A stretch of DNA of 64,000 bases from Terriglobia bacterium (GTDB taxonomy: Bacteria; Acidobacteriota; Terriglobia; 20CM-2-55-15), in NCBI GenBank assembly GCA_965198225.1, contig CBDAOY010000006.1:256001-320000 (forward strand), in the 5' to 3' direction. Made by a program: the position numbers and the translations under genes. The notes beneath the pieces were generated by a model, which was given only the letters and a program-made list of their open reading frames with translations, made no database searches and was not told the DNA's origin. Shown piece after piece: positions 22,022 through 38,965 of the stretch (position 1 is the first letter of the stretch; the number at the start of each line of letters is the position of its first letter).

Positions 22022-24745
22022 CTAATTGTCCGTCGGAACCAGACGCTTCAACTCTTCGAAGAAGTTCAGGACGAGGATCACGGAGGTCGCGGCGGTTTCG
22101 GTGTCGACTGGTCGGGTCGTCAGGAAGCTCTGGTCGTCCAGTGCGACGTCGTACACTCTCGGCCTACCCCCACTGTAGAAAATGCCCGGCATCCGGAACA
22201 GGGGCGTGACAGAGCCAAGCTCGAACGAGTTCTCCGTTGTCGAGAACGTCGCCACCGCGATCTCATTCGTGGCACGGTTCCGGAAGAACAACTCCCGCCC
22301 GTTATGCGCCCAGACGGGTTCGACACCACCGCCGTTTGAAATCGGCCACTTCCCATCGTTGACGTTCGGGAACGGCCGCACGAAGACCTCATTACGGCCC
22401 GTCTCGTTGGACACGTACGCCAGCCAGCGGCCGTCCCGCGAGACTGCGGGGTACGCCTCAAAAAACCTGTCGCTCACGACCAGCGGCTCCGCTTCGCCGT
22501 CCTCGCCGGGTCGCAGCCCGATGATGTCTGAGGTGGGGTGTTCGGGTGGGGCGGGGTTCCTGCGGACCACCAGCCACCCGTCCGGGCTCCAGACACCCTC
22601 CCCACTCGGGGAGTCCGAGTCTCCGTAGACCAACTCGGCCTCCGCCGTGCCGTTGGCCGGCCGCTGCCACACGCGATAAAATTGGCCGGGACCGACAGAA
22701 TTCGAGTTCCCCCGCCTCGACGCGAACGTGATCTCCCGGCCATCGGGCGTCCAGGCCGGGAGCTGTTCCAGAGCATCATCGAAGGTGAGACGGGACATCG
22801 GGCCATCCGGCAGTACCTTGGTCCAGATGTCCACATTCCCGTCCGTTTCGTTCGTGAACACCACCCGGCCGCCATCCGGAGACAGCCGCAGTCCATTGTG
22901 CTGCCCCTCATTTGTCCAACGGAGCGTTTCGCCCGGGCTGACCGGGCTCGCCTCACCCGAACGGGTCACCCACACGAACTCGCGCACGCCAGAAACCCCG
23001 CCCGCAGCATAGACGAGACTGCCGTCCTCCGACACGGCAAAGGCCATGTCACCGAAGAGGCCGATCGTCAGGCCGTCCACAACAGGAACGGCATTCCCTG
23101 TGAACGCCGCACGCGCCACATCGAACGGCGCGGCCATGAGCTGCCCGTCCGGGGTACCGAACAGCAAGTGCCCTGACGCCGCGTAACGCGCCCATCCTCC
23201 CGGTTTCAGCATCTTCCGCTCGCCCGTCTCCAGGTCCATCGACCAAATGGCTGCGTCACTGCTGGATGAATCGCGCAGCACTGTATGCAGCAAGACCTTC
23301 CCACCGGGCATGGGATGGGGGACGTGGGCGAGGTCTCCCTCCGAACGCTGGGTCACCGTTTCGATCTCGCCGCCGGTATCCGGCACGCGGCTGATGGCGA
23401 AGTCCAGGCCCATGAAGTAGAGCCATCCATCGTCGGACCAGGACGCAGTGCGAGCATTTTCTGCCAGTGTCCGGCCCGGTCCCCCGGCAACCGGCACCAC
23501 CCGCAGCGGGCCCGGATTGCCCTGGACGAACGCCACTTCTCTCCCGTCCGGTGAAACCGCAAAGACAGCGCCTCCTCCGACTCCTGCAGTTCCCGGAATC
23601 GGCCGTGCCTCCAGTCCGTTCCAGTTCCGCATCCACAGCTGCGACCCTCCGCTCGTCTCTGCAGGACCCACATAGATGAGAGCCGAACCATCCCGGGTCA
23701 GCTCAAGCCAGCCGGTCGGGGTCTGCCCGTCCTGGAACGGCGTATCGAATCGGGCGATCGAACGCAAAGGTTCGGTCACAGGACGAAGCAGCGACCAACT
23801 GGCGACGACGGCGAACATCGCGGCTAAGACCGTCATCGCGACCGTCAGCCGATTCCAGCGCCCCACCTCCGGTGTCGAGGCCGACAGCTCGCCGCCCGTG
23901 TCGAACGCGCCTTCCAGGGCCAGCCGCATGTCGGCCATGTCGGAGACCCGCTGCTTCGGCTCTCTCTCGAGGCACCGCGTGAGAAACACACGGAGCGTGG
24001 GCGACAGATCGGACGGCAGTGCCTTCCAGGGGACCTCCCCCCGTAGCACCGCTGCCAGAGTGAGCGACACATCTTCGGCCTCGAAGGCACGTTGTCCAGT
24101 GAACATTTCGTAGACCACGCACCCGAAAGCCCAGATGTCGGTGCGCTTGTCGACCGCCTTCCCCCGGGCTTGCTCGGGGCTCATGTAGGCAGCGGTTCCG
24201 AGGATGATCCCCTGCTGCGTCGCCGCCAGGCTCAGCGTGGGAGATTGCGACAAGCTCTCATCCGTCCCATCGCCCGCAAATGCCTTCGCCAACCCGAAGT
24301 CCAGCACCTTCACTTTGCCGTCGGGAGTGACCTTGATGTTGGCGGGTTTCAGGTCCCGGTGGATCACTCCTTTTTCATGGGCCGCTTCGAGAGCCTCGGC
24401 GATCTGGAGTGCGAGCTGGAGGGATTCTTCGACAGGGATCGCACCACGCTTGAGCCGGTCGGCCAGGGTGTCGCCTTCTACGAGTTCGAGGACCAGGAAC
24501 CGCGTGCCTTCGTGTTCCTCTAGGCCGTGGATGGTTGCGATGTTCGGATGGTTCAGGGACGCCAGCAGCTTTGCTTCACGCTCAAACCGGGCCAGCCGTT
24601 CTTCATCTTTGGCGAATTCCTCGGGTAGAGTCTTGATCGCAACCTGCCGCCCCAGCTTCGAGTCCTGCGCCAGCCATACCGATCCCATGCCGCCCTGCCC
24701 GAGCTTGTCGGTGATCTCGTAGTGGCCCAGAGTCTTCCCGATCAT
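22022..24745 (-). CDS. K1: Ser/Thr kinase - TM - TolB/PD40-like beta-propeller receptor
   Basis: 907 aa; GQGGMG, VAIK, HRDLKPAN, DFG, GTAAYMSPEQ; TM helix; SPDG-type repeats; ends VLNFFEELKRLVP. Confidence 0.93.
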   Translation of the reverse strand: MIGKTLGHYEITDKLGQGGMGSVWLAQDSKLGRQVAIKTLPEEFAKDEERLARFEREAKLLASLNHPNIATIHGLEEHEGTRFLVLELVEGDTLADRLKRGAIPVEESLQLALQIAEALEAAHEKGVIHRDLKPANIKVTPDGKVKVLDFGLAKAFAGDGTDESLSQSPTLSLAATQQGIILGTAAYMSPEQARGKAVDKRTDIWAFGCVVYEMFTGQRAFEAEDVSLTLAAVLRGEVPWKALPSDLSPTLRVFLTRCLEREPKQRVSDMADMRLALEGAFDTGGELSASTPEVGRWNRLTVAMTVLAAMFAVVASWSLLRPVTEPLRSIARFDTPFQDGQTPTGWLELTRDGSALIYVGPAETSGGSQLWMRNWNGLEARPIPGTAGVGGGAVFAVSPDGREVAFVQGNPGPLRVVPVAGGPGRTLAENARTASWSDDGWLYFMGLDFAISRVPDTGGEIETVTQRSEGDLAHVPHPMPGGKVLLHTVLRDSSSSDAAIWSMDLETGERKMLKPGGWARYAASGHLLFGTPDGQLMAAPFDVARAAFTGNAVPVVDGLTIGLFGDMAFAVSEDGSLVYAAGGVSGVREFVWVTRSGEASPVSPGETLRWTNEGQHNGLRLSPDGGRVVFTNETDGNVDIWTKVLPDGPMSRLTFDDALEQLPAWTPDGREITFASRRGNSNSVGPGQFYRVWQRPANGTAEAELVYGDSDSPSGEGVWSPDGWLVVRRNPAPPEHPTSDIIGLRPGEDGEAEPLVVSDRFFEAYPAVSRDGRWLAYVSNETGRNEVFVRPFPNVNDGKWPISNGGGVEPVWAHNGRELFFRNRATNEIAVATFSTTENSFELGSVTPLFRMPGIFYSGGRPRVYDVALDDQSFLTTRPVDTETAATSVILVLNFFEELKRLVPTDN

Positions 24746-27463
24746 GGCACCGGTACCCGTTCCTTGAGTTCTTCGAAGAAGTTCTCGACCACGATGACCT
24801 CGGTCGCGGCCGCCTCGCCCTCGCCCTCGTAGGGGCGGACCATCAGGAACCGCTGATCATCTGACGTGATATCGTAGAAGTTGTCGCCCCGGTTCACGTA
24901 GTATTCCGCCGGTACGGTGAACAGCGTCTCCTGCGCCAGCACCTGCCCCGAGCCTGCATCGAACTGGGCAGCCACCAGCCCACGGTCCTCGTCCACGAAG
25001 AACAGCTCACGCCCGCTGTGCGCCCAGAGCGGCCCGAGCCCCCCGTCCCTCGAGATCCGCACCCTGGCCGAGTTCACATCGGGGAGCGGACGCAGGAACA
25101 CCTCGCGGCGGCCCGTTTCGTCGGAACTGTACGCCAGCCATCTCTCGTCCGGCGACAATGCCGGTTCACCCTCGGCAAACTCCGGTGTCGCCACCAGCGG
25201 TATGGCCGCGCTGTCCTCGCCCGGACGGAAAGCCAGGATGTCGCGCAGGCCCAGACCTACAGCCTCGTTTGCCGCGGCGCGGAGCACGAGCCACTCGCCA
25301 TCGGGACTCCACGACCCTTGGGCGAAGGGCCGCTCTTCGTCGAGCACCAGCACCGCTTCTCCCGTTCCGTCAGCACTCTTAGACCATACGTTCCTGTCAC
25401 CCACGGGACCCGAGAAGTACGTCACGGTCTGACCATCGGGCGTCCAGAATGGCCTGAAGTCCTCATCCTCGGCGAACGTGAGCCGCTCCAGCGGACCGTC
25501 GGGCAGGTGCTTGATCCAGATGTCCTGGTTGCGCTCAACCACGGTGGCGAACGCCATCCGCGTCCCGTCCGGTGAAAGCCTCGGCCCGGAGAAGTTAGAC
25601 CTACCGAATGACCATCCGCGATCGACGGATGTCGCCTGGCCCGAGCGCGTTACCCAGACGAACTCGGAGTCGCCGCTCCCACCGCCAGCCTGATACACAA
25701 GCGTGCTGTCGTCCGACAGCGCGAGGTGGACCGAACCGAGGGAGCGCACACCTACACCCTCGGCCAGCGCCACTGGGTCTCCCGCCAGCTGCAGCGCGTC
25801 CTGGTCGAACGAAGCGGCCAGGAGCCTCCCGTCCGCCGTCACGTTGACCAGATGCCCCGACGCTGCGTAGCGGGCGAACACGCCGCGCACGAGGACCTCG
25901 TGCTCCCCGGTCTCCATGTCCGCCACCGCGATGTCGTACTGGCTAAGGTCGCCAATGGGCTCGTGGGCCACCGTGAACAGCACGCCGCGACCGTTGGGGA
26001 GCGCCTGCGGCCAGAGGTGACCCGTCTCGTTTTGTGCTGTGTCGAGCACGGTGAACGGCTCCACCTCGCCGCTCGCCTCCGGCACGCGGAAAAGAGCACT
26101 CCCCCCAGGAGCCGAGAAGTAGATGTAGCCGTCGGGACCCCAGGCGAGCCCCGCAAGTCCAACGCCGCTCTCCACGATCGCCAACGGGGGCCCACCGCTC
26201 AGTGAGACCGCGCGGACCCCGCCACCTGCGTAGAAGGCCACCCTCCGGCCGTCGGCAGAGAAGACGGGGTTCAGCGCTCCTTCGGAGCCCGCGATGGGCG
26301 TCGCCTGGAGTTGATCACGTCGGCGTAGCCAGAGCTGTCGGCCCTGTTCCCCCGGACCCACGTAGACCATCCGAGTCCCGTCCGGTGAGACTGCGACGTT
26401 CGAGCCGAAGCCGTCGCCCCGCTGAGTGACAGGTAACTCGATGCTGTAGCGGCTGACGGGCCTCGCTTCCGGGGCCGAGGGACGGAGGAGCGCCAAGGCG
26501 AGGGTCCCCGCCAGGACGGCGGCGACTGCCGCTAACGCAACCGAGAGCCGGTTCCACCCACCGACGCCCGCAGGGACTCCAGTCCCATCGGCGGTCCCAT
26601 GTCTGGACCCCGGATCAGCCAGTACTTTCTGAATATCCACCCGGACGTCCGCGATGTCGTGGTACCTGTCCTTGGCCTCCTTCTCCAGGCAACGTTCAAG
26701 GAGCAGCCGAATGCGCGGATGCAGGTTCGGTGGCAGGCTTTTCCAGTCCGGTTCTCTCGCAAGCACCCAGGCGAGAACGTCGGACGCAGTGGGGCCTTCA
26801 TAGACTTGCCGCCCGGTCAGCACCTCGAACAAGACGCATCCGAACGCCCAAATATCCGCACGCTTGTCGACTTCCTGCCCTCTCGCCTGCTCCGGGGACA
26901 TGTACGCGGCGGTTCCGAGGATGATCCCCTGCTGCGTCGCCGCCATGCTCAACGTTGGTGAGTTTGAGAGGCTGGCATCGGCACCGTCCCCTATGAATGC
27001 CTTTGCTAACCCGAAGTCCAGCACCTTCACGTTGCCGTCCGGCGTGACCTTGATGTTCGCAGGCTTCAGAATCCCGATGGATGACACCCTTCTCGTGTGC
27101 GGCTTCTAACGCCTCGGCAATCTGCAGGGCGAGTTTGAGGGATTCTTCGACCGGGATGGCACCACGCTTCAGCCGATCCGCCAGCGTGTCGCCTTCGACC
27201 AGTTCCAAGACGAGGAAACGGGTGCCTTCGTGTTCTTCGAGGCCGTGGATCGTGGCGATATTCGGGTGGTTCAACGAAGCAAGCAGTTTCGCTTCGCGTT
27301 CAAACCGGGCAAGGCGCTCTTCGTCCTTGGCGAACTCCTCGGGAAGCGTCTTGATAGCCACCTGCCGGCCCAACTTCACATCCTGCGCCAGCCACACGGA
27401 TCCCATACCGCCCTGGCCGAGCTTGTCGGTGATCTCGTAGTGGCCGAGCGTCTTGCCGATCAT
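24742..27463 (-). pseudogene. K2: kinase-propeller receptor with a +1 frameshift in the HRDLK motif
   Basis: ORFs 26798-27463 and 24742-27087 join if one T is removed from cgggattctgaag (~27071); could be a sequencing error. Confidence 0.85.
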
Positions 27464-29905
27464 GGCACCGGCACCCGTTCCTTCAGTTCTTCGAACCAGT
27501 TGAGGACGATGTTGATTTGGGGCCGTGCGGATTCCGAGGTTTCGGTTTGGTCCGCAGGTATGATGACCACGAATTGTTCCCCATCAGGCATGATGTCGTA
27601 GCTTCGGTAAGTGCCGAATGCCAGGAACCCCTGGATAGGAAGCGCCTGCTCGTTCGTGACTGTGACGGCACCGTTAGTTGAAACGTCGATGCCAATTATT
27701 CTCCGTGCCCCAGCCCCAGCCTGGAAAACCCGTCGGTAAAACAACTCACTTCCGTCTGGCGACCAGAGCGGAAACACCCCGCCGTTCTGTGTGAGCTGAT
27801 ATTTCACACCTGTCGCCGGAACTGGCTGGACGTAAACTTGGTTGGGCCCACTTTCGCTGGAATAGTACGCCAGCCAGTTCCCGTCAGGGGAGAACACCGA
27901 ACCGGCCGGGAGGGAACCGGGCATGGAGTAAAACACTTCCGGTGCGGCCTCACCATCTAGCGATAACGTCCAGATCTCCCTTTCTCCGTCGCTACCAATC
28001 GCCTGAAAGGAAAGAGTGCGTCCATCCGGTGACCAGGACTCCGGCCAATGCCGGACACCTTCTTCGGCATTCGTTAAGGGTTCGGCGACCCCGCTTCCAT
28101 CTGCGGATTGCCACCAAATGCCCGTGGTTCCATCTCTGTCTGAGGCGAAGGTCAAGCGTTCACCATCAGGCGTCCATATGGGTCGGCTGTTGGTGCCTTC
28201 CCTCGTTAGCTGCCGAATAGCTGAGTTACCAGACAGATCGTAAACCCAGACTTGCCCCTCGCCTTCAGGTGTCTGTACCGCAAGCTGCGTTCCATCCGGC
28301 GAAATGCGGGGCGTCAAATATTGAGCGGGCGGGACGTTGAGCGGTTCCACGCCGCCGTTACGGTCTGCCAATGTGAGAGTACCGTTGGCAGTTGATGTGC
28401 CCGCCCCGACAACGTAAACAAGCGAACCATCGGTAGAGAAACTGAAATGTCCCGTGCCGGTTTGGGCTCCTGGTGCTCTTGCCATACCCTCCACAATCGA
28501 AACCGGTCCACCCGTCACTTCCAGACTCGCCAAATCAAACGGAACTGCGAACAGTCCATCCTCAAGCGCATAGGCGAGATGTCCGGTCGGCACGTAGCGG
28601 GCGTCGCTGCCGCCGCTCAGCAACTCTTTCTGCTCGCCCGTGTCCAGTGACTGCACCACAATCTGTGCTTCGTCCCAACGACCGAGCCCTGTTGCGCTTG
28701 TCAGTGTGAACAGCACCGATTTCCCATCCGGCAATGCTTGTGGTCCATGGACTTGCCCTTCCTCGTTCAATACGAGCGTTTCTGGAGTTCCACCGTTGGC
28801 CGAAACCCACATGACGCCGCCGGGTTCACCCCACACGATCATGTCGTCCTCACTCCAACTCACCCCGAAAGGATTGGTCGCCACATCGCATAGCTTCACA
28901 GGTGCTCCGCCGCTGATGGCAATCGTCTTCAACTGTTGGTCCGTCTGGGACCAGTAGCCAACCGACTGACCATCCGGCGAGAAGAACGGGTTGGTCGGGG
29001 TTTCATCAGTCCCCGGTATGGGATGCGCTTCCAACTCGTCCATCGAACGCAAGTACAGTTGCGTGTTGGCAACATAGACGATGTTGGACCCATCGGGGGA
29101 TACCGCTACAAGAGGACGGCCTGCGTTTGTGAAATCCTGATCGCCGGGTAGCACATGGGAGAACCGGCTGATGGGACGGGGTTCGGGCGGTTTCAGGTAC
29201 CAGCCTGCCACCCCAGCGACGATTACGCTGAGAACGACCGCAAGTGCGATCCATCGCAGTATCGGTCTCGGCGGTGCCTGAATGACATCGGCAACCGGCT
29301 GGACCAGCAGACCTTTGGATCGCTCAACGACTGTTCAATCTCAATCCGCACATCCCCAGCAGCCTGCCACCGGTCCTTCGGTTCCTTGTTCAGACACCGT
29401 CGGAGTAGATGCTGAATACTCGGGTGCAGGCTCGTCTGCAATGCCGTGTACTCAGGGTCGCGGGCAAGAACGGATGCCATCACATCCGACACCAATTCAC
29501 CCTGGAACGCTTGCCGCCCGGTCAGCATCTCGAACAGAACGCAGCCGAATGCCCAAATGTCCGCCCGTTTGTCCACTGGCACACCACGTGCTTGCTCTGG
29601 ACTCATGTAAGCCGCGGTGCCGAGAATGATCCCTTGCTGCGTTGCCGCCAGACTCAATGTCGGCGACTGCGACAAGTTCACATCAGCGCCATCTCCGGCG
29701 AATGCTTTGGCCAGCCCGAAGTCCAGCACCTTGACTTTGCCGTCGGGTGTGACCTTGATATTGGCGGGCTTTAGGTCTCGATGAATCACACCCTTCTCAT
29801 GGGCTGCTTCAAGAGCCTCGGCAATCTGGAGTGCGAGCTTCAGGGATTCTTCGACGGGTATAGCCCCACGCCTCAACCGATCGGCCAGCGTGTCGCCTTC
29901 AACTA

Positions 29906-30719
29906 GGGCGTGTTAACACTAATGAGCATGAATGTTTTATAATCAGGCATGGAGATCACACAGGAGCAGTATTGTCGCATCGAGCCGGAACTGCCGCGTC
30001 AGCGGGGCAACGTCAGTCTTTCGAACCTGACGGTCTTGAACGCCATTTTGTATGTGGCTGAGCAGGGCTGCAAGTGGCGCGGTCTGCCCAAGCGCTTTGG
30101 CAACTGGCACACCATCTACACCCGGATGAACCGCTGGTCCAAGAACGGGGTGCTCGACGCCGTCTTCGAAAAACTCCAGCGCGAGCAACTGGTGCGCATC
30201 CGGGTGGAAGCCGTTTCGATGGACTCGACCATTGTGAAGGTGCATCCCGACGGCACAGGAGCGTTAAAAAAAACGGTCCGCAAGCGATCGGCAAATCCCG
30301 CGGTGGATGGACCACCAAGATTCATCTGGTTGCCGCGAATGCTCGAACGGCGATAACGTTTGCGCTCTCGCCCGGCCAAGCGCACGACGCCCCGCAGGGC
30401 CGCGAGCTGCTCGCCGGCCTGGGGCCGTTGCCCGCGCCGCTGCCGCTGCTGATGGACCGTGCCTACCAGGACGACCAGACCCGCCAATTGGCTCTGGATT
30501 TTGGGTGGATTCCCGTCGTGCCGCCCAAGCGCAACCGCTTGGAGCCGTGGGAATACGACCGCGTTCTCTACCGCCGCAGGAACGAAGTCGAGAGGCTCTT
30601 CCGCCGACTCAAAGGTTTCCGGCGTATATTCTCCCGCTTCGATAAACTCGACGTCATGTTCCTCGCCTTCCTTCACTTCGCTCTCATCGTCGAGGCACTA
30701 CGTTAGTGTTAACACGCCC
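29906..30719 (+). mobile_element. IS5-family element (two-ORF type), copy 1
   Basis: TIRs gggcgtgttaacactaa / ttagtgttaacacgccc, TA duplicated within a CTAG target, 814 bp. Confidence 0.93.
29949..30706 (+). CDS. IS5-family transposase, two overlapping ORFs likely joined by -1 frameshift at an A run (~30266-30273)
   Basis: GCKWRGLPKRFGNWHTIYTR, MDSTIVKVH; second frame IGKSRGGWTTKIH, DRAY, RNEVERLFRRLKGFRR. Confidence 0.9.
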
Positions 30720-30979
30720 TAGTTCGAGGACGAGGAACCGCGTGCCGCTGTCTTCTTCCAAGCCGTGGATCGTGGCAATGTTCGGGTGGTTTAGCGAAGC
30801 GAGTAGCTTGGCTTCACGTTCAAACCGCGCCAACCGCTCCTCGTCCTTCGCGAACTCCTCGGGTAGAGTCTTGATCGCAACCTGCCGACCCAGCTTCGAG
30901 TCCTGCGCCAGCCACACCGATCCCATGCCTCCCTGACCGAGCTTGTCGGTGATCTCGTAGTGGCCCAGCGTCTTGCCGA

Positions 30980-33703
30980 TCATGGCACCGGCACCCGTTC
31001 CTTCAGTTCTTCGAAGAAGTTCTCGACCACGATGACCTCGGTCGCAGCCGCCTCGCCCTCGCCCTCGTAGGGGCGGACCATCAGGAACCGCTGATCATCT
31101 GACGTGATGTCGTAGAAGTTGTCGCCCGGGCTCACCTGATATCCCGCCGGTATGGTGAACAGCGTCTCCTGCGCCAGCACCTGCCCCGAGCCTGGATCGA
31201 ACTGGGCAGCCACCAGCCCACGGTCCTCATCCACGAAGAACAGCTCACGCCCGCTGTGCGCCCAGAGCGGCCCGAGCCCCCCGTCCCTCGAGACCCGCAC
31301 CCTGGCCGAGTTCACATCGGGGAGCGGACGCACGAACACCTCGTAGCTGCCTGTTTCGTTCGAACTGTACGCCAGCCATCTGCCGTCCGGCGACAATGCC
31401 GGCGCTCCCTCGGCAAACTCGGGTGTCGCCACCAGCGGTATGGCCGCGCTGTCCTCGCCCGGACGGAAAGCCAGGATGTCGCGCAGGCCAAGACCCACTG
31501 CCACGGTTGCCGCGGCGCGGAGCACGAGCCACTCCCCATCGGGACTCCACGACCCTTGGGCGAAGCCGCGCTCTTCGTCGAGCACCAGCACCGCTTCTCC
31601 CGTTCCGTCCGCACGCTTAGACCATACGGTCCCTTCGTTCAGGGGACCCGAAAAGTACGTCACGGTCTGACCATCGGGCGTCCAGAATGGCCTGATGTCA
31701 TCATCCTCGGAGAACGTGAGACGCTCCCGCGGTCCGTCGGGCAGGTGCTTGATCCAGATGTCCCGGTTGCCCTCAACCTCGGCGTTGAACGCCATCCGCG
31801 TCCCGTCCGGTGATAGCCTCGACCCGAAGTTGGTAGGGCTAACGAATGTCCATCCACGATCGACGGACGTCGCCTGGCCCGAGCGCGTTACCCAGACGAA
31901 CTCGGACTGGAGGGCCCCGCCTCCGGCCTGATACACGAGCGTGCCGTCGTCCGACAGCGCGAGGTGGACCGAACCGAGGGAGCGCACACCTACACCCTCG
32001 GTCAGCGCCACTGGGTCTCCCGCCAACTGCAGCCCGTCGTGGTCGAACGGAGCGGCCAGGAGCGTCCCGTCCGCCGTCACGTAGACCAGATGCCCCGACG
32101 CCGCGTAGCGGGCGAACACGCCGCGCACGAGGATCTCGTGCTCCCCGGTCTCCATGTCCGCTACCGCAATGTCGTGCTGGCTGACGTCGCCACTGGGCTC
32201 GTGGGCCACCGTGAGCAGCACGCCGCGACCGTTGGGGAGCGCCTGCGGCCAGATGTGACCCGTCTCGCTCTGTGCCGGGTCGAGCACGGTGAACGGCTCC
32301 ACCTCGCCGCTCGTCTCCGGCACGCGGACAAGAGCACTACTCCCTTGAGCCCGGAAGTAGATGTAGCCATCGGGACCCCAGGCGAGCCCCCCAACTCCAA
32401 CGCCACTCTCCACGATCGCCAACGGTGGCCCACCGCTCAGTGAGACCACGCGGACCCCGCCACCTTCGTGGAAGGCCACCCTCTGGCCGTCGGGAGACAA
32501 TACGGGGTTCTCCGCTCCCTCGGTGCCCGCGATGGGCGTCGCCTGAAGTTGATCACGTCGGCGTAGCCAGAGCTGTATGCCGCTCTGTTCCCCCGGACCC
32601 ACATAGACCATCTGAGTCCCGTCCGGTGAGACCGCGACGCTCGAGCCTCTGCCGTTGGCCCGCTGAGTGACAGGTAACTCGATGCTGTAGCGGCTGACGG
32701 GCCTCGCTTCCGGGGCCGAGGGACGGAGGAGCGACCAGGCGAGGGTCCCCGTCAGGACGGCGGCGACTGCAGCGAACGCAACCGCCAGCCGTTTCCACCG
32801 ACCGACGCCCGCAGGGACTCCAGTCCCATCGGCGGTCCCATGTCTGAACCCCGGATCAGCCATTACTTTCTGAATATCCACCCGAGCATCGGAAATGTCA
32901 CCGTATCGGTCTCTCGACTCCTTCTCCAAGCAACGATCCAGGAGCAGCCGAATGCGTGGATGCACGTTCGGCGGCAGGCTCTTCCAATCCGGTTCTCTCG
33001 CAAGCACTCCGGCAAGAACGTCGGACGCGGTGGGGCCTTCATAGACTTGCCGCCCGGTTACCATCTCGAACAAGACGCAGCCGAACGCCCAGATGTCGGC
33101 ACGCTTGTCCACTTCCTGCCCTCTCGCTTGCTCCGGAGACATGTACGCGGCCGTCCCGAGGATCACTCCCTTCTGCGTCGCCGCCATGCTCAGGGTCGGG
33201 GAGTTCGACAGGCTGGCATCGGCACCGTCGCCTATGAAGGCCTTCGCCAAACCAAAGTCCAGCACCTTGACCTTACCGTCGGGCGTCACCTTTATGTTGC
33301 CGGGTTTCAGATCCCGGTGAATCACACCCTTTTCATGCGCTGCTTCTAACGCCTCGGCAATCTGCAGGGCGAGTCTGAGGGATTCTTCGACCGGGATGGC
33401 CCCGCGCTTCAGCCGGTCCGCCAGCGTGTCGCCTTCGACCAATTCGAGGACAAGGAACCGGGTACCGTCGTGTTCTTCGAGGCCGTGGATCGTGGCGATA
33501 TTCGGGTGGTTCAACGAAGCAAGCAGTTTCGCTTCGCGTTCAAACCGGGCAAGGCGCTCTTCGTCCTTGGCGAACTCCTCGGGAAGCGTCTTGATAGCCA
33601 CCTGCCGGCCCAACTTCACATCCTGCGCCAGCCACACGGACCCCATGCCGCCCTGCCCGAGCTTGTCGGTGATCTCGTAGTGGCCGAGCGTCTTGCCGAT
33701 CAT
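30980..33703 (-). CDS. K4: Ser/Thr kinase - TM - beta-propeller receptor (recent paralog of K2)
   Basis: 907 aa intact ORF; all kinase motifs; ends ENFFEELKERVPVP. Confidence 0.93.
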   Translation of the reverse strand: MIGKTLGHYEITDKLGQGGMGSVWLAQDVKLGRQVAIKTLPEEFAKDEERLARFEREAKLLASLNHPNIATIHGLEEHDGTRFLVLELVEGDTLADRLKRGAIPVEESLRLALQIAEALEAAHEKGVIHRDLKPGNIKVTPDGKVKVLDFGLAKAFIGDGADASLSNSPTLSMAATQKGVILGTAAYMSPEQARGQEVDKRADIWAFGCVLFEMVTGRQVYEGPTASDVLAGVLAREPDWKSLPPNVHPRIRLLLDRCLEKESRDRYGDISDARVDIQKVMADPGFRHGTADGTGVPAGVGRWKRLAVAFAAVAAVLTGTLAWSLLRPSAPEARPVSRYSIELPVTQRANGRGSSVAVSPDGTQMVYVGPGEQSGIQLWLRRRDQLQATPIAGTEGAENPVLSPDGQRVAFHEGGGVRVVSLSGGPPLAIVESGVGVGGLAWGPDGYIYFRAQGSSALVRVPETSGEVEPFTVLDPAQSETGHIWPQALPNGRGVLLTVAHEPSGDVSQHDIAVADMETGEHEILVRGVFARYAASGHLVYVTADGTLLAAPFDHDGLQLAGDPVALTEGVGVRSLGSVHLALSDDGTLVYQAGGGALQSEFVWVTRSGQATSVDRGWTFVSPTNFGSRLSPDGTRMAFNAEVEGNRDIWIKHLPDGPRERLTFSEDDDIRPFWTPDGQTVTYFSGPLNEGTVWSKRADGTGEAVLVLDEERGFAQGSWSPDGEWLVLRAAATVAVGLGLRDILAFRPGEDSAAIPLVATPEFAEGAPALSPDGRWLAYSSNETGSYEVFVRPLPDVNSARVRVSRDGGLGPLWAHSGRELFFVDEDRGLVAAQFDPGSGQVLAQETLFTIPAGYQVSPGDNFYDITSDDQRFLMVRPYEGEGEAAATEVIVVENFFEELKERVPVP

Positions 33704-36330
33704 GGCACCGGCACCCGTTCCTTCAGTTCTTCGAACCAGTTGAGGACGATGTTGATAGGATTTGGTGAACCAGCTTCGATCAGCTGGCGGAAAAGGAAAC
33801 GATTGCCGTCCGGATGAACTGAGGGATAAGGAGAGGGCGGCATATCGAGCACCTCAGACGCGGAACCCAGCCGGCCATCTGCTCCGACGGGCACTGACAT
33901 CAGGGCTAGCTGAAGCTGGTCACTGTAGTACAAGGAATCGCCATCTGGTGACCAGGCTGGATTAGAGCCGCGTCCTCCAACCTGCAACGGACGACTTCGT
34001 CTGGGAAATTCGGAGAGAAAAATGGTCGCGCCAGTTTCGAGCCCAGCGCGATATGCGATCCGGTTTCCATCTGGCGAAAACTGCGCTTGGTACTCAGGAA
34101 ACGGCTGATCGGCAAACGCGGTGACCTGCCCCGTCTCGCGATCCAGAATCCAGAGATCACGCGATCCCGGATCACTCACCGTGTATGCGAGGTAACGGCC
34201 GCTGGGCGACCAGGACTCGGGTATAGGCGAGTTGGCGTTTTCGGGGAGCAGTTTCTCAGGAGGGACCAGGCTTTCAATGGACTGAGAATAGAGGCTATCG
34301 CCGTCCGTGATGGTAATCCGTTGTCCACCTGGCTCCCAGATTGGTCTCAAGGCAAATCCTGTTCGGAGGCCGGGTATTCGCAGCTGACTCTGAATACCCC
34401 TTTCCAGATCCATGAGATAGACCCCGTCTTGATTGGCGAGCTCGTAGAGTAGGGAATCCCCATTCGGAGAGAGCCGCGGTCTTGCCGCCGGAACCTCCAG
34501 CACGGCCGCAGACGTGACTCCGCTTTGGTCTGTCCAGACAAATCTCGGCTCGCCCCCAGAACCTGGAGTTCGCGCGTAGGCCAGGACACCGTCACGCGAT
34601 ACCGAAAAAGCCGCTCGACCGTTCGCGGCGAGAACGACATCGCCTGCCACCGCGATCGCATCTCCAGCCAACAGTTCTCCCCGCGTCGCGTCGAAAGCTT
34701 GCGCCAACAGGAACGAGTCTCGGACAAACAGCAGATGCCCTGGCTCGGAATATTGAGCCATCGACGCGGACGGCATAATGGCCCGCGGCGGCTGATCATC
34801 CAAGCTTCCGACGTAGAGGGTCCAGTCTGTGAGACCGTCAGTTCTCGACAGGTAGACGAATCGCCGACCGTCGGGAAGAAAGGAGGGCCATGTCTGAAGT
34901 ATTTCGCCCGGCGTCTCACCAAGATTCGTAACCGGCGTCGGCGCGCCGCCTGAAGCGGGAACACGCATGATCGGACCGCTCGGGTTCCGACCCCCGAAGA
35001 TGATCGTGCCTTGGTTATTCCACGAACCGCCCTGATCGCCCCTTGGTGCCTCGCTTATCGTGAACGCCGGGCCGCCTTCAAGATCCACCCTGCGAAGCTC
35101 CCCATCTGCAAAGAAACCCACCTGTTGGCTGTCGGGTGACCAGAAGGGCATGGTGGCGTTCTCCGTGCCCGGTATCGGAGCGGATTCGAGCGAATCCATC
35201 CGCCGCACCCACAGTTGGATGATGCCATCGGTCGTACCTTGGTAAACCAGGCGAGAGCCATCCGGCGATATGGCCATTCGGGGAGCGCCACCCCGACCGG
35301 CAAGGACTGTCTCGTCCGGCGGAAAGACCGAGAACTTCACTACGTTGTGCGCCGCTTCGGACTGATTGAGATAGAAATAGACGAGTCCAACCGCAAGGAC
35401 CACAGACAGGGTGGCAAAGGCCAGAGTAGCGGCGAACAACGGTCGCTCCCTGCCGGGGGTAGCGACTGAAACTTGTACTCCGCTTTCAATGTGGGACAGT
35501 TCGATCCTCAGGTCTCCCACATCGCGCCACCGATCACGCGGATCCTTTTCCAAGCACCGCAGAATCAGCTCCCGAACTCGAGGGTGCAGTTGGCTATGAA
35601 GTGTTGAGTAGTCCGGTTCCCGAGCCAAGACCGAGGCCATCACGTCCGACATCAACTCGCCCCGGAACGCCTGACGGCCTGTCAGCATCTCGTACAGCAC
35701 ACATCCGAATGCCCACACGTCAGCCCGCTTGTCGACTTCCTGTCCACGCGCTTGCTCCGGTGACATGTAAGCGGCAGTGCCAAGAATCACACCCTGCTGG
35801 GTTGCCGCCAGACTCAAGGTCGGTGACTGCGACAGGTTCGCGTCCGACCCGTCCCCCAAGAAAGCCTTCGCCAGCCCGAAGTCCAGCACCTTCACCTTCC
35901 CGTCGGGTGTGACCTTGATGTTCCCTGGTTTCAGATCACGGTGAATCACACCCTTCTCATGTGCTGCTTCGAGAGCTTCGGCGATCTGGAGGGCAAGTTT
36001 GAGGGATTCCTCGACGGGGATGACACCGTGTTTCAGCCGATCCGCGAGCGTGTCGCCCTCGACGAGTTCAAGGACGAGGAACCGAATGCCGTTGTCTTCT
36101 TCCAGACCGTGGATGGTGGCGATGTTCGGGTGGTTCAGGGAGGCGAGAAGTTTGGCTTCACGCTCAAACCGGGCCAGACGTTCTTCGTTCTGCGCGAACT
36201 CTTCAGGAAGTGTCTTGATGGCGACTTCCCGTCCGAGTTTGGAATCCCGCGCACGCCACACCTCGCCCATGCCTCCCTTTCCGAGCGGGGAGAGAACTTC
36301 GTAGCTGCCGAGTTGGGTGCCGGGGGTCAT
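33700..36330 (-). CDS. K5: Ser/Thr kinase - TM - beta-propeller receptor
   Basis: 876 aa intact; starts MTPGTQLGSYE, ends LNWFEELKERVPVP. Confidence 0.93.
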   Translation of the reverse strand: MTPGTQLGSYEVLSPLGKGGMGEVWRARDSKLGREVAIKTLPEEFAQNEERLARFEREAKLLASLNHPNIATIHGLEEDNGIRFLVLELVEGDTLADRLKHGVIPVEESLKLALQIAEALEAAHEKGVIHRDLKPGNIKVTPDGKVKVLDFGLAKAFLGDGSDANLSQSPTLSLAATQQGVILGTAAYMSPEQARGQEVDKRADVWAFGCVLYEMLTGRQAFRGELMSDVMASVLAREPDYSTLHSQLHPRVRELILRCLEKDPRDRWRDVGDLRIELSHIESGVQVSVATPGRERPLFAATLAFATLSVVLAVGLVYFYLNQSEAAHNVVKFSVFPPDETVLAGRGGAPRMAISPDGSRLVYQGTTDGIIQLWVRRMDSLESAPIPGTENATMPFWSPDSQQVGFFADGELRRVDLEGGPAFTISEAPRGDQGGSWNNQGTIIFGGRNPSGPIMRVPASGGAPTPVTNLGETPGEILQTWPSFLPDGRRFVYLSRTDGLTDWTLYVGSLDDQPPRAIMPSASMAQYSEPGHLLFVRDSFLLAQAFDATRGELLAGDAIAVAGDVVLAANGRAAFSVSRDGVLAYARTPGSGGEPRFVWTDQSGVTSAAVLEVPAARPRLSPNGDSLLYELANQDGVYLMDLERGIQSQLRIPGLRTGFALRPIWEPGGQRITITDGDSLYSQSIESLVPPEKLLPENANSPIPESWSPSGRYLAYTVSDPGSRDLWILDRETGQVTAFADQPFPEYQAQFSPDGNRIAYRAGLETGATIFLSEFPRRSRPLQVGGRGSNPAWSPDGDSLYYSDQLQLALMSVPVGADGRLGSASEVLDMPPSPYPSVHPDGNRFLFRQLIEAGSPNPINIVLNWFEELKERVPVP

Positions 36331-38965
36331 TGGTTAGCGAGTTCAGCGGTCCAGTTGACGATGATCGTGACCGGTGGTGGGTCCAGGCTCGGGCGGCGCA
36401 GCAGGAAACTGGCCCCGTCGCCGGTCACGGCATAGTGATGCCGACTGTCTATCAGCCCTGACGCCGCCGGATTAAAAACCGGTGCCACTGTGCCAAACTC
36501 CAGACCCGAGGAACCAGCATCCATACGGACCGCCATGAGGTTTGCGTCCCCACTGCCGCCCTTGTAGAACAGCTCCCTGCTGTCGTCCCTCCACCTGGGA
36601 TGGCTGCCTGGACCGTCGGAGACGCGTTGGCGGTCGGTCACGTCCGGGAACCGCGCCACGTAGATGCTATCCTCGCCGGATTCTCTCGAAGAGTAGGCGA
36701 CCCACTCCTCGTTCGGCGAAAAGTGAGCGGCACGCTCGGTATAATTCGGATCGTTGAAAAGCGGCCAGGGTTCGTCCCCGGAAACGGGCAACACCCAAAC
36801 GTCGCCGCTTTGATTGAACAGAATGAACTGTCCGTCCTGCGACCAGTCCGTGGGAAGCAGTGATCCGGTCCCCTCGGCAGCTTCCCAGAGAGGCTCGTCC
36901 TGGTCCGTACGGATGTTCTTCTTCCAGATACCCCACTTCCCGTTCCGGTAGGACTGATAGGCGATTTCCTGGCTGTTGGGTGACCAGACCGGGTCGGCAT
37001 CGAACGAAGGCGTTGACGCGAACCGCGAGGGAACACCCGTTCCCACATCGATCAACCAGATATCGACATTCCCGGTCGCTGGATCCTTGCGGTTCACCCC
37101 GATTTGTTGCCCGTCCGGTGACAGGGACGGGTTCAGATATTCGCCCGTCTGTGGCTGCTGAACCCGTCGGGTTTCGTTTCCGTCACGATCGAACCACACG
37201 AGTTGTCCGTCCACACGGTTCCCGGACCGAAACGCGAGAATACCGTTATTCGAAACCGAAAGCGGCATGTCATCCCCGGCATTGATCCCAGGAGTAGACA
37301 CCTGGGGACCGATTCGGCGGGCTTCTCCGTTGAGCTCCAGGCGATCGACGTCAAACGGCTGCGCCATCAAGACGCCCCCGCTCACGAACAGGATATGAGC
37401 GCTACCGAACACGGCCTTGGTGTTGCGGTCGGCGTTCAACAGAAGACGCGTTTCTGGGGATTCCAGAGACGCCAGGTAAATCGAAGACGGCTGAAGGCGA
37501 CCCCCGCCCCTCGAATAGAGGAAATGAATTCCGTCGGGAAGGAAGTGCGGGCGCCCGCCCTGCACTTCCAGCGTCAGCGGGACGGGTTGGCCGCCCGTCG
37601 CCGATACGCGGTGCAGGATCCCACTGCCACGGAAAACAATTTCCCCATCGGCGTTCCATGTACCGCCTCCAGCCGTGACCACAGGACAGACAATCCGGGG
37701 AGCCGCGCCGGAGAGATCCGCAACCCGGAGGTCTGTCGACGTGAAGAATCCTATGGACTGCCCATTCGGCTCCCAGAACAAAGATCTGACGGCACCCTCC
37801 GTACCCGCCAGCATCCGCATTTCACCCGACCCGCGTTCGCGGACCCAGACCGCCGGCCGACCGGTGGGTTCTGGCGCGAGGAATGCAATTCGTTCGCCGT
37901 CGGGTGAAATGGCCAGCACTTGTGCACGGGCCTCGAAGGGTTGGGGGAAGGAAAATCGGAAAGCCGTCTGCTCCGGGGGTGCGACGGAAAAATAAGCCAC
38001 GGCCAGGATCAGCGTTGCAATCAGAAGGACTCCAATTGCGGACCACAAGACAAGTTCACGGCCTTTTGATCGGGTTTCAACGGGGGCTGTTCCAACTTGT
38101 GCACTGCCATCTGTGATCCACTGCAACTCGCGCATCAGGTCGGCGGCGTTTTGACACCGATCTTCGGGATTCTTGGCGAGGCATGCCTTGATGACGTGAT
38201 TGAGCATGGGCGGCGAGACCGGCTGAACCTCAGTGACCGGCGCGGGCTGGTGGTTCATGATCGCCCCGACCAGACTTGCCTGACTCGCACCCTCAAACGC
38301 CTTCTTCCCGGTCACCATTTCGTACACGACCGCCCCGAACGCGAAGATGTCTGTCCGGGCGTCGGCTTCCTTGCCCTCCAACTGTTCGGGTGCCATGTAC
38401 TGGAGCGTGCCGATGATCGTTCCTTCGGCTGTGAGGGGTGCGGACGGATCTTGCGTGGGCATCTGCGAGAGTGGTGAGACCTCACCCGCTTCGCCCTTGA
38501 GCTTCGCCAGCCCGAAGTCGAGCAGCTTCACACCCGCCGACTTCGTCAGCATGATGTTGCCGGGTTTGAGGTCCCGATGCACGACGCCCTGCCGGTGCGC
38601 CTTGTCCAGCGCGTCGGCGATCTGGATGGCGTATTCGAGGGCCTGGTCGAGCGGGAGGCGTCCCTTCTCCAACCGCTGCTGCAGCGTGTCGCCCTCCACC
38701 AGTTCCATGACGAGGTAGTGAACGCCGTCCTGTTCCCCCACGTCGTGCAGATGTGCGGGTGGTTCAGACTGCTGACGGCCTTGGCTTCGCGCTCGAAGCG
38801 TTCCCGGCGTTGCGGGTCGGAGGCGAGGTGTTCGGGCAGGACTTTGATGGCGACCGTGCGCTCCAGGCGGGTGTCGGTAGCGCGATACACCTCTCCCATA
38901 CCGCCGGCACCGAGTTGGTCGGCGATTTCGTATGGACCCAGACGTGTGCCTGCTGCGAGCGACAC
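36327..38965 (-). pseudogene. K6: kinase-propeller receptor with a frameshift at HPHICT
   Basis: True start [14 protein letters not shown] (GTG 38965); frame changes at ~38745 where paralog K8 reads CTLHDIG; ends VNWTAELANQ. Confidence 0.87.

What the first reader, a model, noticed from the sequence alone, without database searches (positions are those of the whole stretch)
24742..33755. Recent duplicate pair K2/K4 differs in short hypervariable patches of the sensor
Seen: ~24500-27515 and ~30740-33755 are a ~3-kb duplication offset by ~6.24 kb. The sensors are mostly identical but differ in clustered amino-acid patches: QRGDGFGSN/QRANGRGSS, SAPGGS/RAQGSS, PIGDLSQY/PSGDVSQH, GSGDSE/GALQSE, SFGRSNFSGP/TFVSPTNFGS, ATVVERNQ/NAEVEGNR, PVGDRN/PLNEGT, EYYVNRG/GYQVSPG. 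Inference: these are inter-blade loops on a ligand-binding face under diversifying selection, akin to antibody CDRs.
Basis: partly seen in the sequence, partly recalled or inferred. Interest (0 to 1): 0.82.

Follow-up and report, generated by a model that had tools for sequence, protein, structure and literature searches.

The report
Receptor kinases with variable propeller face
Two neighbouring copies of a bacterial membrane receptor kinase differ mainly in loops on one face of their outer beta-propeller sensor, the usual way a large receptor family acquires new binding specificities.

Summary
The duplication and all eight patch pairs are real. K2 (24742-27463) and K4 (30980-33703) are minus-strand genes in a tandem array. 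Each encodes a Hanks Ser/Thr kinase, one membrane helix and a predicted tandem 6+6-bladed PD40/TolB-like propeller.

They are not a simple recent pair.
- At least 10 sensors, in several genomes, are 73-91% identical in a star-like pattern.
- The kinase core is far older than the sensor: dS 0.4-1.5 against about 0.1.
- K2 has a +1 frameshift in the catalytic HRD loop.

K2/K4 amino-acid differences cluster on one propeller face:
- B-C and D-A loops: 43 of 168 residues.
- Opposite-face loops: 8 of 127.

Synonymous divergence in the patches equals the background. No donor sequence for the patches exists elsewhere in the genome.

My own codon site models favour about 5% of codons with omega about 9. 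The LRT is 28-77 depending on controls. Those sites are also hypervariable in other subfamily members. Taken as a class, however, the variable loops have omega about 0.9.

Verdict: ordinary receptor-family diversification with a focused signal of positive selection. Ligand binding is untested.

The parts
30980..33703 (-). K4: intact 907-aa receptor Ser/Thr kinase gene (kinase, one TM helix, tandem propeller sensor)
   Evidence: ORF; translation shows VAIK, HRDLKP and DFG; Pkinase 172.9 bits and PD40 103.1 bits
32900..33679 (-). K4 kinase domain (residues 9-268)
   Evidence: Pfam PF00069 match to residues 9-268
32729..32794 (-). K4 hydrophobic segment (about residues 304-325), the presumed single membrane helix
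   Evidence: Read from the translation: hydrophobic stretch between kinase and sensor. The topology is inferred
30983..32728 (-). K4 sensor (residues 326-907): predicted tandem 6+6-bladed PD40/TolB-like beta-propeller
   Evidence: AF2 model pLDDT 93.9, pTM 0.89; 12 blades read from DSSP; Foldseek top hits are double propellers such as 2ymu, LRP6 and tricorn; TolB by sequence, E 4e-10, for sensor residues 301-458
24742..27463 (-). K2: paralogue of K4 with a +1 frameshift in the kinase catalytic loop; split into ORFs 26798-27463 and 24742-27087
27070..27071 (-). Extra T in K2 directly after the HRD aspartate codon (GGGATTCTG against GGGATCTG in K4)
   Evidence: alignment; sequence
24745..26487 (-). 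K2 sensor, open reading frame, 86-87% identical in protein to the K4 sensor
32639..32665 (-). Variable patch, K4 residues 347-355 (loop before blade 1; sites 349 and 352 in the omega>1 class)
32336..32353 (-). Variable patch, K4 residues 451-456 (B-C loop of blade 3; site 451)
32174..32197 (-). Variable patch, K4 residues 503-510 (B-C loop of blade 4; site 504)
31901..31918 (-). Variable patch, K4 residues 596-601 (B-C loop of blade 6)
31820..31849 (-). Variable patch, K4 residues 619-628 (D-A link between the two propellers; site 623)
31763..31786 (-). Variable patch, K4 residues 640-647 (end of strand B and B-C loop of blade 7; site 642)
31628..31645 (-). Variable patch, K4 residues 687-692 (B-C loop of blade 8; C9a has a 12-nt insertion here)
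31124..31144 (-). Variable patch, K4 residues 854-860 (D-A loop between blades 11 and 12; sites 856 and 858)
   Evidence: a contig of run X1 carries the G003-type residues here
24483..24741 (-). Start of K1, the part of the duplicated unit downstream of K2; its counterpart is 30721-30979, the start of K3
   Evidence: (family D1)
27460..30983 (-). K3: array member between K2 and K4, broken by an IS and by a 1-nt frame break near 29313
29903..30718 (+). 816-bp IS (DDE_Tnp_1 transposase, inverted ends, CTAG on both sides) inserted in K3
   Evidence: depth 300-2500 against about 10-20, and one contig joins 29902 to 30719
22022..24745 (-). K1: intact 907-aa array member; its sensor is 45% identical to K4's
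33700..38996 (-). K5 (33700-36330) and K6 (36327-38996): further array members, joined by ATGA stop/start overlaps

Best explanation
K2 and K4 are two members of a young, recombining and horizontally spreading subfamily. It belongs to a very large family of bacterial receptor-type Hanks Ser/Thr kinases. The architecture is a cytoplasmic kinase, one membrane helix, and a tandem six-plus-six-bladed PD40/TolB-like beta-propeller outside the cytoplasmic membrane.

New copies arise by recombination between the conserved kinase and gene-junction sequences of array neighbours, and by transfer together with insertion sequences. After copying, most of the sensor stays under purifying selection. A few dozen residues change fast and repeatedly. 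They all lie in the B-C and D-A loops, on the face of each propeller opposite the conserved SPDG turns, and about ten codons change faster than synonymous sites.

The most likely meaning (inferred, not shown) is that this face recognises the ligand and the copies are being selected for different specificities, as in other expanded receptor families. K4 looks functional. K2 as assembled has a frameshift in the catalytic loop, so it is probably a recently disabled kinase.
For: Architecture:
- Pkinase and PD40 score above the Pfam cut-offs in 6 of 6 full-length array genes tested.
- The AF2 model has pLDDT 93.9, 12 blades and double-propeller Foldseek hits.

Family size:
- 112 tblastn matches to K4 in this genome.
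- 16,404 representatives at E<=1e-30 in the 1.84-billion library.
- 33 of 40 genomes searched (39 relatives plus G000) have a match.

Mosaic origin:
- dS is 0.4-1.5 in the kinase core against about 0.1 in the sensor.
- Topology-mixture weights are 0.48, 0.19 and 0.33.
- The same sensor type is joined to different kinase N-termini in P0157, P0160 and P0162.

Horizontal spread:
- The G003 copy is 90.0% identical to K4 over 2552 nt. Two single-copy genes of the window are only 70-72% identical to their G001-G003 counterparts.
- A 1.5-kb IS that is 98% identical in both genomes lies about 2.3 kb upstream of the G003 copy.

One-face variation:
- K2/K4 differences: 43/168 top loops, 8/127 bottom loops, 29/263 strands.
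- Sites with three or more residues among 4 copies: 19/168, 0/127, 11/263.
- The same holds in 8 further subfamily proteins: 51/168, 5/127, 33/263.
- Family-wide entropy is 2.82, 1.73 and 2.16 bits.

Selection:
- M2a against M1a gives LRT 70.3-76.9 on three topologies.
- LRT is 71.8 after masking 56 indel-adjacent codons.
- LRT is 34.7 and 35.5 with double- and triple-nucleotide rates added.
- LRT is 28.5 (p 7e-7; omega2 8.7, 5% of codons) with those rates plus a per-site topology mixture.
- 14 null simulations gave LRTs of 0-9.0.
- About 60% of codons have omega near 0.
- dS in the eight patches is 0.104 against 0.112 elsewhere.
- Synonymous-only codons are no nearer to replacements than random (6.18 against 6.15 codons).
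- The ten best sites (349, 352, 437, 451, 504, 575, 623, 642, 856, 858) carry 4.9 distinct residues among 8 other subfamily proteins, against 1.63 at other positions.
Against: - The variable-face loops taken as a class have omega 0.88 (NG86) and 0.91 (ML). The LRT against 1 is 0.20, p 0.65. This is what relaxed constraint alone would give.
- The site-model signal vanishes (LRT 0.0) when the 47 codons with two or more nucleotide differences between any two copies are removed. It therefore rests wholly on multiply changed codons.
- The models are my own code, fitted to four sequences. In the null simulations 2 of 14 LRTs exceeded 5.99, so the test may be somewhat liberal.
- Three of the four DNA sequences (K2, C9a, G003) have broken kinase domains. 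The branch counts for K2 (33 N: 19 S, p 0.08) and C9a (21: 10, p 0.41) are not clearly below the neutral ratio.
- Pure synonymous differences are somewhat more frequent in the variable loops for K4-K2 (15/125 against 24/377, p 0.053) and K2-C9a (p 0.009). They are not more frequent in 3 of the 6 pairs.
- I had no 3D coordinates. The faces are inferred from strand order, not measured.
- No ligand, expression or kinase activity was tested.
- The background divergence between genomes rests on one 3.6-kb stretch.
Confidence: 0.6

Rival explanations
1. Neutral drift under relaxed constraint. The loops on that face simply tolerate change, several copies are decaying pseudogenes, and there is no selection for new specificities.
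For: - Omega of the variable-face loops as a class is 0.88-0.91 and does not differ from 1.
- K2, C9a and the G003 copy have frame breaks or truncations in the kinase.
- 7 of the 11 subfamily proteins whose start is on record begin inside or after the kinase domain.
- The same loops are the most variable and most indel-rich across 146 homologues, as expected of unconstrained loops.
- The positive-selection signal disappears without the multiply changed codons.
Against: - The nearly-neutral model is rejected in every variant fitted that kept those codons (LRT 28.5-76.9).
- Eight codons carry four different residues in four copies, although pairwise dS is only about 0.1.
- Those same codons are again the most variable in other members, including full-length ones (P0157, P0160, P0162).
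- About 60% of sensor codons have omega near 0, so the sensors were constrained during most of their divergence.
- No stop codon or frameshift occurs in any of the four sensors.
Confidence: 0.25
2. Patch-wise gene conversion or templated replacement. Short tracts copied from other, more distant paralogues or from other strains create the clustered multi-nucleotide differences, which codon models misread as selection.
For: - The genes are clearly mosaic. The kinase core and the sensor have very different dS.
- No single tree fits.
- Patch variants are shared in conflicting patterns. K2 equals the G003 copy at 689-692, and K2 equals C9a at 597-599.
- All of the site-model signal sits in codons with two or more nucleotide differences.
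Against: - No 14-mer of the K2 or K4 sensor patches occurs in any other paralogue of this genome. Only the conserved C-terminal junction (codons about 894-904) is shared.
- dS inside the patches equals the background (0.104 against 0.112), whereas tracts from diverged donors should carry extra synonymous changes.
- Synonymous changes do not cluster near replacements.
- The LRT stays at 28.5 with multi-nucleotide rates and a per-site choice of topology.
- Donors in other genomes were not searched at the DNA level.
Confidence: 0.1
3. Targeted hypermutation, such as a diversity-generating retroelement or another programmed mutator acting on the sensor.
For: - Short hypervariable patches sit in an otherwise conserved frame.
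- The genome holds 34 reverse-transcriptase matches.
Against: - None of the 34 RVT_1 matches lies in the window. The nearest on this contig are about 22 kb past its end (C6:342594 and 344286), and many are identical multi-copy elements.
- K2/K4 sensor differences involve all base pairs (AG 36, CG 31, CT 28, AC 16, AT 15, GT 12) with no adenine bias.
- The variable sites are spread over at least 12 loops across 1.6 kb. They do not form one template-sized region.
- Synonymous sites in the patches are not elevated.
Confidence: 0.02

Closest known systems
Mycobacterium tuberculosis PknD (receptor Ser/Thr kinase with an extracellular six-bladed beta-propeller sensor)
   Same: Same overall plan: an N-terminal Hanks kinase, one membrane span, and a C-terminal beta-propeller proposed as the ligand sensor. 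This description of PknD comes from passages of PMC2877116, which cite Good et al. 2004. I did not read that paper.
   Different: The NCBIfam PknD model scores 136 bits against a cut-off of 839, and it matches the kinase part only. PknD's propeller is a single one of NHL repeats (recalled, from no call). Here there are two six-bladed PD40/TolB-like propellers. PknD is a single gene; here there are more than 100 matches per genome.
TolB (Tol-Pal system periplasmic beta-propeller protein)
   Same: The second propeller (sensor residues 301-458) matches TolB chains by sequence (E 4e-10). The PD40 repeats score 103 bits.
   Different: The TolB equivalog model TIGR02800 scores 88 bits against a cut-off of 343. 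Here the propeller is doubled and fused to a kinase through a membrane helix. It is not part of a Tol-Pal operon.
Expanded Ser/Thr kinase paralogue families of soil Acidobacteria (Candidatus Solibacter usitatus Ellin6076)
   Same: A large genome has many Ser/Thr kinase paralogues next to many mobile elements (passages of PMC3174227). PD40 repeats are among the domains most often tethered to prokaryotic Ser/Thr kinases (passages of PMC2877116). One same-genus record is titled 'uncultured Solibacteraceae bacterium' (L080).
   Different: That paper reports paralogues mostly below 50% identity. Its whole-gene dN-dS test found no positive selection among them (statistic -6.478, P 1.0). Here a young subfamily (73-91% identity) allows a site-level test, which does point to a few fast codons.
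Plant receptor-like kinases and other expanded receptor repertoires (analogy only)
   Same: A conserved kinase and scaffold, with replacement changes focused on exposed residues of a repeat-domain ectodomain; tandem arrays; frequent pseudogenes. This comparison is recalled, not tested. only listed a paper on LRR-RLK duplication (PMC5179525), which I did not read.
   Different: The repeat fold differs (propeller, not LRR), the host is bacterial, and no ligand is known.

Membership tests
Hanks-type (eukaryotic-like) Ser/Thr protein kinase, Pfam PF00069 | Kinase domain match above the curated cut-off | tested here: met
   K4 scores 172.9 bits against a cut-off of 31.7, residues 9-268
Hanks-type (eukaryotic-like) Ser/Thr protein kinase, Pfam PF00069 | Catalytic motifs present in one open frame (VAIK lysine, HRD, DFG); the motif names are recalled | tested here: met
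   K4's translation shows [12 protein letters not shown] and DFG. In K2 the frame breaks directly after HRD, so K2 does not meet this feature as assembled
PD40 / TolB-like beta-propeller repeat proteins, Pfam PF07676 | PD40 repeat matches above the cut-off and a propeller fold | tested here: met
   PD40 scores 103.1 bits against a cut-off of 20.9. The AF2 model has 12 four-stranded blades. Foldseek finds double propellers with E down to 2e-16
TolB proper (TIGR02800 equivalog) | Score above the equivalog cut-off | tested here: not met
   88 bits against a cut-off of 343.15
PknD (NF009651 equivalog) | Score above the equivalog cut-off | tested here: not met
   136.3 bits against a cut-off of 839; only the kinase part matches
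Diversity-generating retroelement target | Reverse transcriptase and template repeat next to the variable region | tested here: not met
   None of the 34 RVT_1 matches is in the window; the nearest is about 22 kb beyond its end. I did not search separately for a template repeat, apart from the repeat scan of 18000-40000
Diversity-generating retroelement target | Differences confined to adenine positions of a template | tested here: not met
   All six classes of base difference occur, with no adenine bias
Anti-phage defence kinases (PADLOC PD-T4-6, MADS mad6) | Full-length match or system context, not only the kinase domain | tested here: not met
   The PADLOC hits cover K4 residues 1-318 only, which is the kinase. 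NCBIfam MAD6 scores 146 bits against a cut-off of 460. I did not look for partner genes

The most novel reading that the evidence does not exclude
The subfamily may be a conflict-driven receptor repertoire. One intact receptor kinase (K4) would be accompanied by a set of kinase-dead copies that keep perfectly open, constrained sensor frames (K2, C9a, the G003 copy and several truncated members elsewhere). These copies would serve as a recombination reservoir, or as decoy sensors. They exchange loop variants and move between species with insertion sequences. The fast codons would then track an antagonist that acts in the periplasm (a bacteriocin, a phage protein or a competitor's effector) rather than a nutrient or an environmental cue. 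The repeated frame breaks at the same HRD|LKP codon in K2, in C9a and at the called start of P0005 would then be a sign of recurrent, perhaps selected, switching-off of the kinase.
Probability: 0.1. Interest if true: 0.8.

Novelty: new member of a known kind. Interest (0 to 1): 0.45.

Why it matters
Receptor-type Ser/Thr kinases with PD40 propellers are very common in soil and sediment bacteria (16,404 representatives at E<=1e-30). I know of no assigned ligand for any of them, and the four literature searches that ran listed none. This young subfamily shows where specificity is likely to reside: about a dozen loops on one face of each propeller and about ten fast codons. That gives a concrete target for loop-swap and ligand-screening experiments. 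It also shows how such families grow: recombination inside conserved kinase and junction sequences, IS-associated transfer between species whose core genes are only about 70% identical, and frequent loss of the kinase half. In those four searches I found no report of site-level positive selection in such sensors. The one paper that tested Ser/Thr kinase paralogues used whole-gene averages and found none (PMC3174227, passages).

Tried and rejected
- The structure tool returns no coordinates (one search found no model file). I could not measure exposure or the relative position of the two variable faces. Faces were inferred from the strand order in the DSSP string.
- Allelic variation in reads: only Logan contigs were available, not raw reads.
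  - The contigs are short.
  - At 95% likeness they can come from sister copies. The X1 contig on K4 31014-31439 carries exactly the G003-type codons at 856 and 858, so it reflects the related organism, not an allele.
  - Differences at 25258-25265 in K2 (patch 733-736; X5 and X8, one contig each) could likewise be cross-mapped copies.
  - I draw no conclusion on within-population variation.
- K2 frameshift check: no contig shows removal of the extra T. Cover of that exact place by K2-specific contigs cannot be shown, so it remains open whether the frameshift is real or an assembly error.
- Donor search: exact 14-mers of the K2 and K4 sensors found nothing outside the subfamily except the conserved C-terminal junction. 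Gapped or shorter donors, and donors in other genomes, were not searched.
- DGR reading: rejected.
- Defence-system reading: the PADLOC and NCBIfam hits are generic kinase-domain similarity below the cut-offs.
- The search for related loci in genome contigs returned only distant relatives (50% identity or less), apart from one 142-residue fragment at 93% (L080). It added no DNA for the subfamily.
- Pfam accessions PF26549 and PF26550 are precomputed for these proteins. They did not appear in my local Pfam scan, so I do not know their names.
I replaced it.
- The scripts stopped on my own assertions. I corrected them.
Full report
WHAT IS THERE

The window is contig C6:256001-320000 of a 6.4-Mb genome in nine contigs. 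Its minus strand carries a tandem array of about 2.7-kb genes:
- K1, 22022-24745
- K2, 24742-27463
- K3, 27460-30983
- K4, 30980-33703
- K5, 33700-36330
- K6, 36327-38996
- two more full-length members at 41640-44348 and 46054-48747

Consecutive genes overlap by four bases (ATGA). All six full-length members I tested have a Pkinase domain at the N-terminus and PD40 repeats in the C-terminal 580 residues. A hydrophobic stretch of about 22 residues lies between them.

An AlphaFold2 model of the K4 sensor (residues 326-907, built on 146 homologues) has pLDDT 93.9 and pTM 0.89. Its DSSP string resolves into 12 four-stranded blades. Each blade has an SPDG-like tight turn between its first two strands. 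Foldseek's best PDB matches are double propellers: 2ymu, LRP6 E1E2 and tricorn protease. By sequence only TolB is found, at E 4e-10 for sensor residues 301-458. These genes are therefore receptor-type Hanks kinases with a tandem TolB-like propeller outside the membrane. Placing the sensor in the periplasm is an inference from the single hydrophobic segment.

THE OBSERVATION

The 6241-nt offset repeat is real. It runs from the start codons of K2 and K4, through their stops, and about 260 nt into K1 and K3. K2 and K4 share 91.4% of nucleotides and 88.6% of residues. Together they hold 35 of the 80 sensor amino-acid differences in 60 of 567 codons. Adjacent differing residues number 21 against 11.2 expected (P 0.001).

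1. K2 has an extra T right after the HRD aspartate codon (27070/27071). This splits it into a 221-aa ORF and a 781-aa ORF.

2. The pair is a mosaic. Nei-Gojobori dS in 60-codon windows:
   - 0.08-0.20 over codons 1-90
   - 0.4-1.5 over kinase codons 91-270
   - about 0.1 over the sensor

   The sensor and the next gene's first 85 codons thus share a much more recent origin than the kinase core.

3. K2 and K4 are not a closed pair. A third full copy lies on contig C9 (C9a, 755767-758501). It has four out-of-frame indels confined to the kinase: -2, -1, -5, and an 8-nt tandem duplication at the same HRD|LKP position as K2's extra T. Its sensor frame is an open 793 aa. A fourth, chimeric copy (C9b) is similar only up to codon 590. 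A same-genus genome, G003, holds a 5'-truncated copy with a 1-nt deletion in the kinase and an open 708-aa frame. A near-identical copy sits in G021.

4. Protein searches add P0155, P0157, P0160, P0161, P0162, P0163 and P0005. P0158 is identical to the G003 copy over the part compared. The twelve sensors are 73-91% identical to one another in a star-like pattern. K2-K4 is 87%, K4-G003 89%, and G003-P0157 91%.

5. Codon-model trees prefer (K4, G003),(K2, C9a), with a very short internal branch. In a per-site topology mixture the K2+K4 grouping receives the least weight, 0.19.

HORIZONTAL SPREAD

The G003 copy is 90.0% identical to K4 over 2552 nt. Two adjacent single-copy genes of the window (6053-9704) are only 70-72% identical to their syntenic counterparts in G001, G002 and G003. 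In G003 the copy sits among mobile DNA. A 1.5-kb element 2.3 kb upstream is 98% identical to three copies in this genome, one of them right next to the C9 array. The subfamily is therefore younger than the species and has moved between them. The background figure rests on a single stretch.

WHERE THE DIFFERENCES LIE

I classed the 582 sensor residues from the DSSP string:

| Class | Residues | K2/K4 differences | Sites with 3+ residues among 4 copies |
|---|---|---|---|
| B-C and D-A loops (one face) | 168 | 43 | 19 |
| A-B and C-D loops (other face, with the SPDG turns) | 127 | 8 | 0 |
| Strands | 263 | 29 | 11 |
| Termini | 24 | 0 | 0 |

Fisher's test for top against bottom gives 9e-6 for the K2/K4 differences and 1.6e-5 for the sites with three or more residues. 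Many of the strand differences sit at strand ends that border the variable loops.

In a four-stranded up-and-down blade, alternate loops must lie on opposite faces. The one-face conclusion therefore does not depend on which strand is innermost. Calling that face the 'top' follows the WD40 convention, which I recall and did not test.

The same bias appears in eight other subfamily proteins (51/168, 5/127 and 33/263 sites with three or more residues). It also appears across 146 homologues of 36-84% identity: entropy 2.82, 1.73 and 2.16 bits, and inserted alignment columns 240, 29 and 64. The variable face is thus a property of the whole family. K2 and K4 show its earliest stage.

SELECTION OR TOLERANCE?

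For the pair, sensor dN/dS is 0.69, and the highest 60-codon window reaches 1.6.

The useful number there is dS: 0.104 inside against 0.112 outside. The patches are therefore neither older, nor foreign, nor hypermutated.

With the structural partition, which does not use the differences, omega is as follows:

| Class | NG86 omega | ML omega | ML test against 1 |
|---|---|---|---|
| Variable-face loops | 0.88 | 0.91 | p 0.65 |
| Other-face loops | 0.38 | 0.39 | p 0.006 |
| Strands | 0.69 | 0.49 | p 0.002 |

As a class, the variable loops look neutral.

I then wrote a Goldman-Yang codon likelihood for K4, K2, C9a and G003 (564 codons) and compared M1a with M2a:

| Variant | LRT |
|---|---|
| Three topologies | 70.3, 70.3, 76.9 |
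| 56 indel-adjacent codons masked | 71.8 |
| Double- and triple-nucleotide rates added (two topologies) | 34.7, 35.5 |
| Those rates plus a per-site mixture of the three topologies | 28.5 (p 7e-7) |
| 47 codons with two or more nucleotide differences removed | 0.0 |
| 14 simulations under M1a | 0-9.0 (2 of 14 above 5.99) |

In the last full model omega2 is 8.7 for 5% of codons, and 61% of codons have omega 0.07. The signal lies entirely in the multiply changed codons.

The ten sites with posterior above 0.8 in the most conservative model are 349, 352, 437, 451, 504, 575, 623, 642, 856 and 858. Seven are in D-A or B-C loops. Three are in A or B strands; by the strand boundaries these lie at strand ends next to those loops. 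Among eight other subfamily proteins (seven independent of the fitted set), these ten sites carry 4.9 distinct residues on average, against 1.63 elsewhere (p 2e-9).

My reading: most of the variable face is merely tolerant, and a small set of positions on it has been driven to change. I put this at about 0.6. The reasons for caution are the four-sequence data set, the home-made code and the reticulate history.

OTHER MECHANISMS

- Patch donors: no 14-mer of either sensor recurs in another paralogue, except at the conserved C-terminal junction. Synonymous changes do not gather near replacements.
- DGR-type mutagenesis: differences involve all base pairs. None of the genome's 34 reverse-transcriptase matches is in the window.
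- Defence-system models match only the kinase domain and score below the cut-offs.

STATE OF THE COPIES

K4 has the kinase motifs in one frame. K2, C9a and the G003 copy do not. Of the 11 subfamily proteins whose start is on record, 7 begin inside or after the kinase domain: at about residues 94, 132 (twice), 145 and 147, and further downstream in P0158 and P0163. Three (P0157, P0160, P0162) are full-length, with kinase N-termini different from K4's. Yet no sensor has a stop or a frameshift. Either the breaks are recent, or the sensor half has a use of its own. I cannot tell which.

Public contigs add three points:
- K3's 816-bp IS is a high-copy element, and one contig of run X3 joins 29902 to 30719, showing an empty site.
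- One contig each in X3 and X5 carries an extra G behind 29313, which would restore K3's frame.
- The contigs cannot settle whether K2's frameshift is real.

COMPARISON WITH WHAT IS KNOWN

The kinase-plus-PD40 architecture is listed among the commonest for prokaryotic Ser/Thr kinases, and PknD is the studied propeller-sensor example (passages of PMC2877116). Large Ser/Thr kinase paralogue families beside many mobile elements are described for Candidatus Solibacter usitatus. A whole-gene test there found no positive selection (passages of PMC3174227). The genes here are new members of that known kind.

Three things are not in the papers my four successful searches returned:
- the one-face pattern of variation
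- the site-level selection signal
- the spread of sensor-bearing copies between species

VERDICT

The 'recent pair' framing is too simple. The CDR analogy holds for the geometry (loops on one face) and, with moderate support, for selection at about ten codons. It does not hold for any programmed mutation mechanism. This is an instructive but largely expected case of receptor-family diversification.

Noticed in passing
window 29903-30718 (inside K3): An 816-bp insertion sequence with inverted ends (GGCGTGTTAACAC...), CTAG on both sides, a DDE_Tnp_1 ORF (30074-30706) and a run of eight A near 30265. In public contigs its depth is 300-2500 against about 10-20 for the flanks. One contig of run X3 joins 29902 to 30719, an empty site.
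   Followed up: partly
window 29313 (K3): One contig each in runs X3 and X5 has an extra G behind 29313. This lies where K3's reading frame breaks between ORFs 29223-29876 and 27460-29211. K3's frameshift is therefore either a strain difference or an assembly error.
   Followed up: partly
window 27070-27071; G000:C9 about 756160 (C9a); protein P0005: Three subfamily members are broken at the same codon boundary, directly after the kinase HRD motif. K2 has +1 T. C9a has an 8-nt tandem duplication. The gene call of P0005 starts exactly at the following LKP. Other paralogues in the genome break at other positions. I have no explanation. An excision footprint or a recombination joint is possible.
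   Followed up: partly
L126 (G003:C1:2879000-2898900) 7550-9075; G000 C9:34595-36119, C8:694050-695575, C9:750541-751733: A 1.5-kb mobile element is 98% identical between two genomes whose single-copy genes are about 70% identical. In G000 one copy abuts the C9 kinase array, and in G003 it lies 2.3 kb upstream of the K-type copy.
   Followed up: partly
L032 (G003) and L033 (G021): The K-type copies in a genome of the same genus and in one assigned to another genus differ at only 5 of about 2945 aligned columns. This means either very recent transfer or a mis-binned contig.
   Followed up: no
window 24742-24745, 27460-27463, 33700-33703, 36327-36330: Array genes overlap by ATGA (the stop of one and the start of the next). 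The last 40 nt or so (ENFFEELKERVP) and the first 240 nt or so are nearly identical among K1-K4. The C-terminal motif is shared at the DNA level with paralogues on other contigs. This suggests co-transcription and repeated homogenisation of the junctions.
   Followed up: partly
window 19335-20537, 49119-50303, 51948-53750, 54187-55581, 61630-63996: A Mutator/IS256-family transposase, another DDE transposase, and three further truncated or split kinase-propeller genes. An amidase gene (44376-46001) sits between two array members.
   Followed up: no
whole genome G000: There are 34 reverse-transcriptase (RVT_1) matches, many with identical scores, as expected of multi-copy group II intron-like elements. 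None is in the window.
   Followed up: no
proteins: Precomputed Pfam accessions PF26549 and PF26550 are attached to nearly all family members. They did not appear in my local Pfam scan of K4. They may be recent models of this sensor.
   Followed up: no
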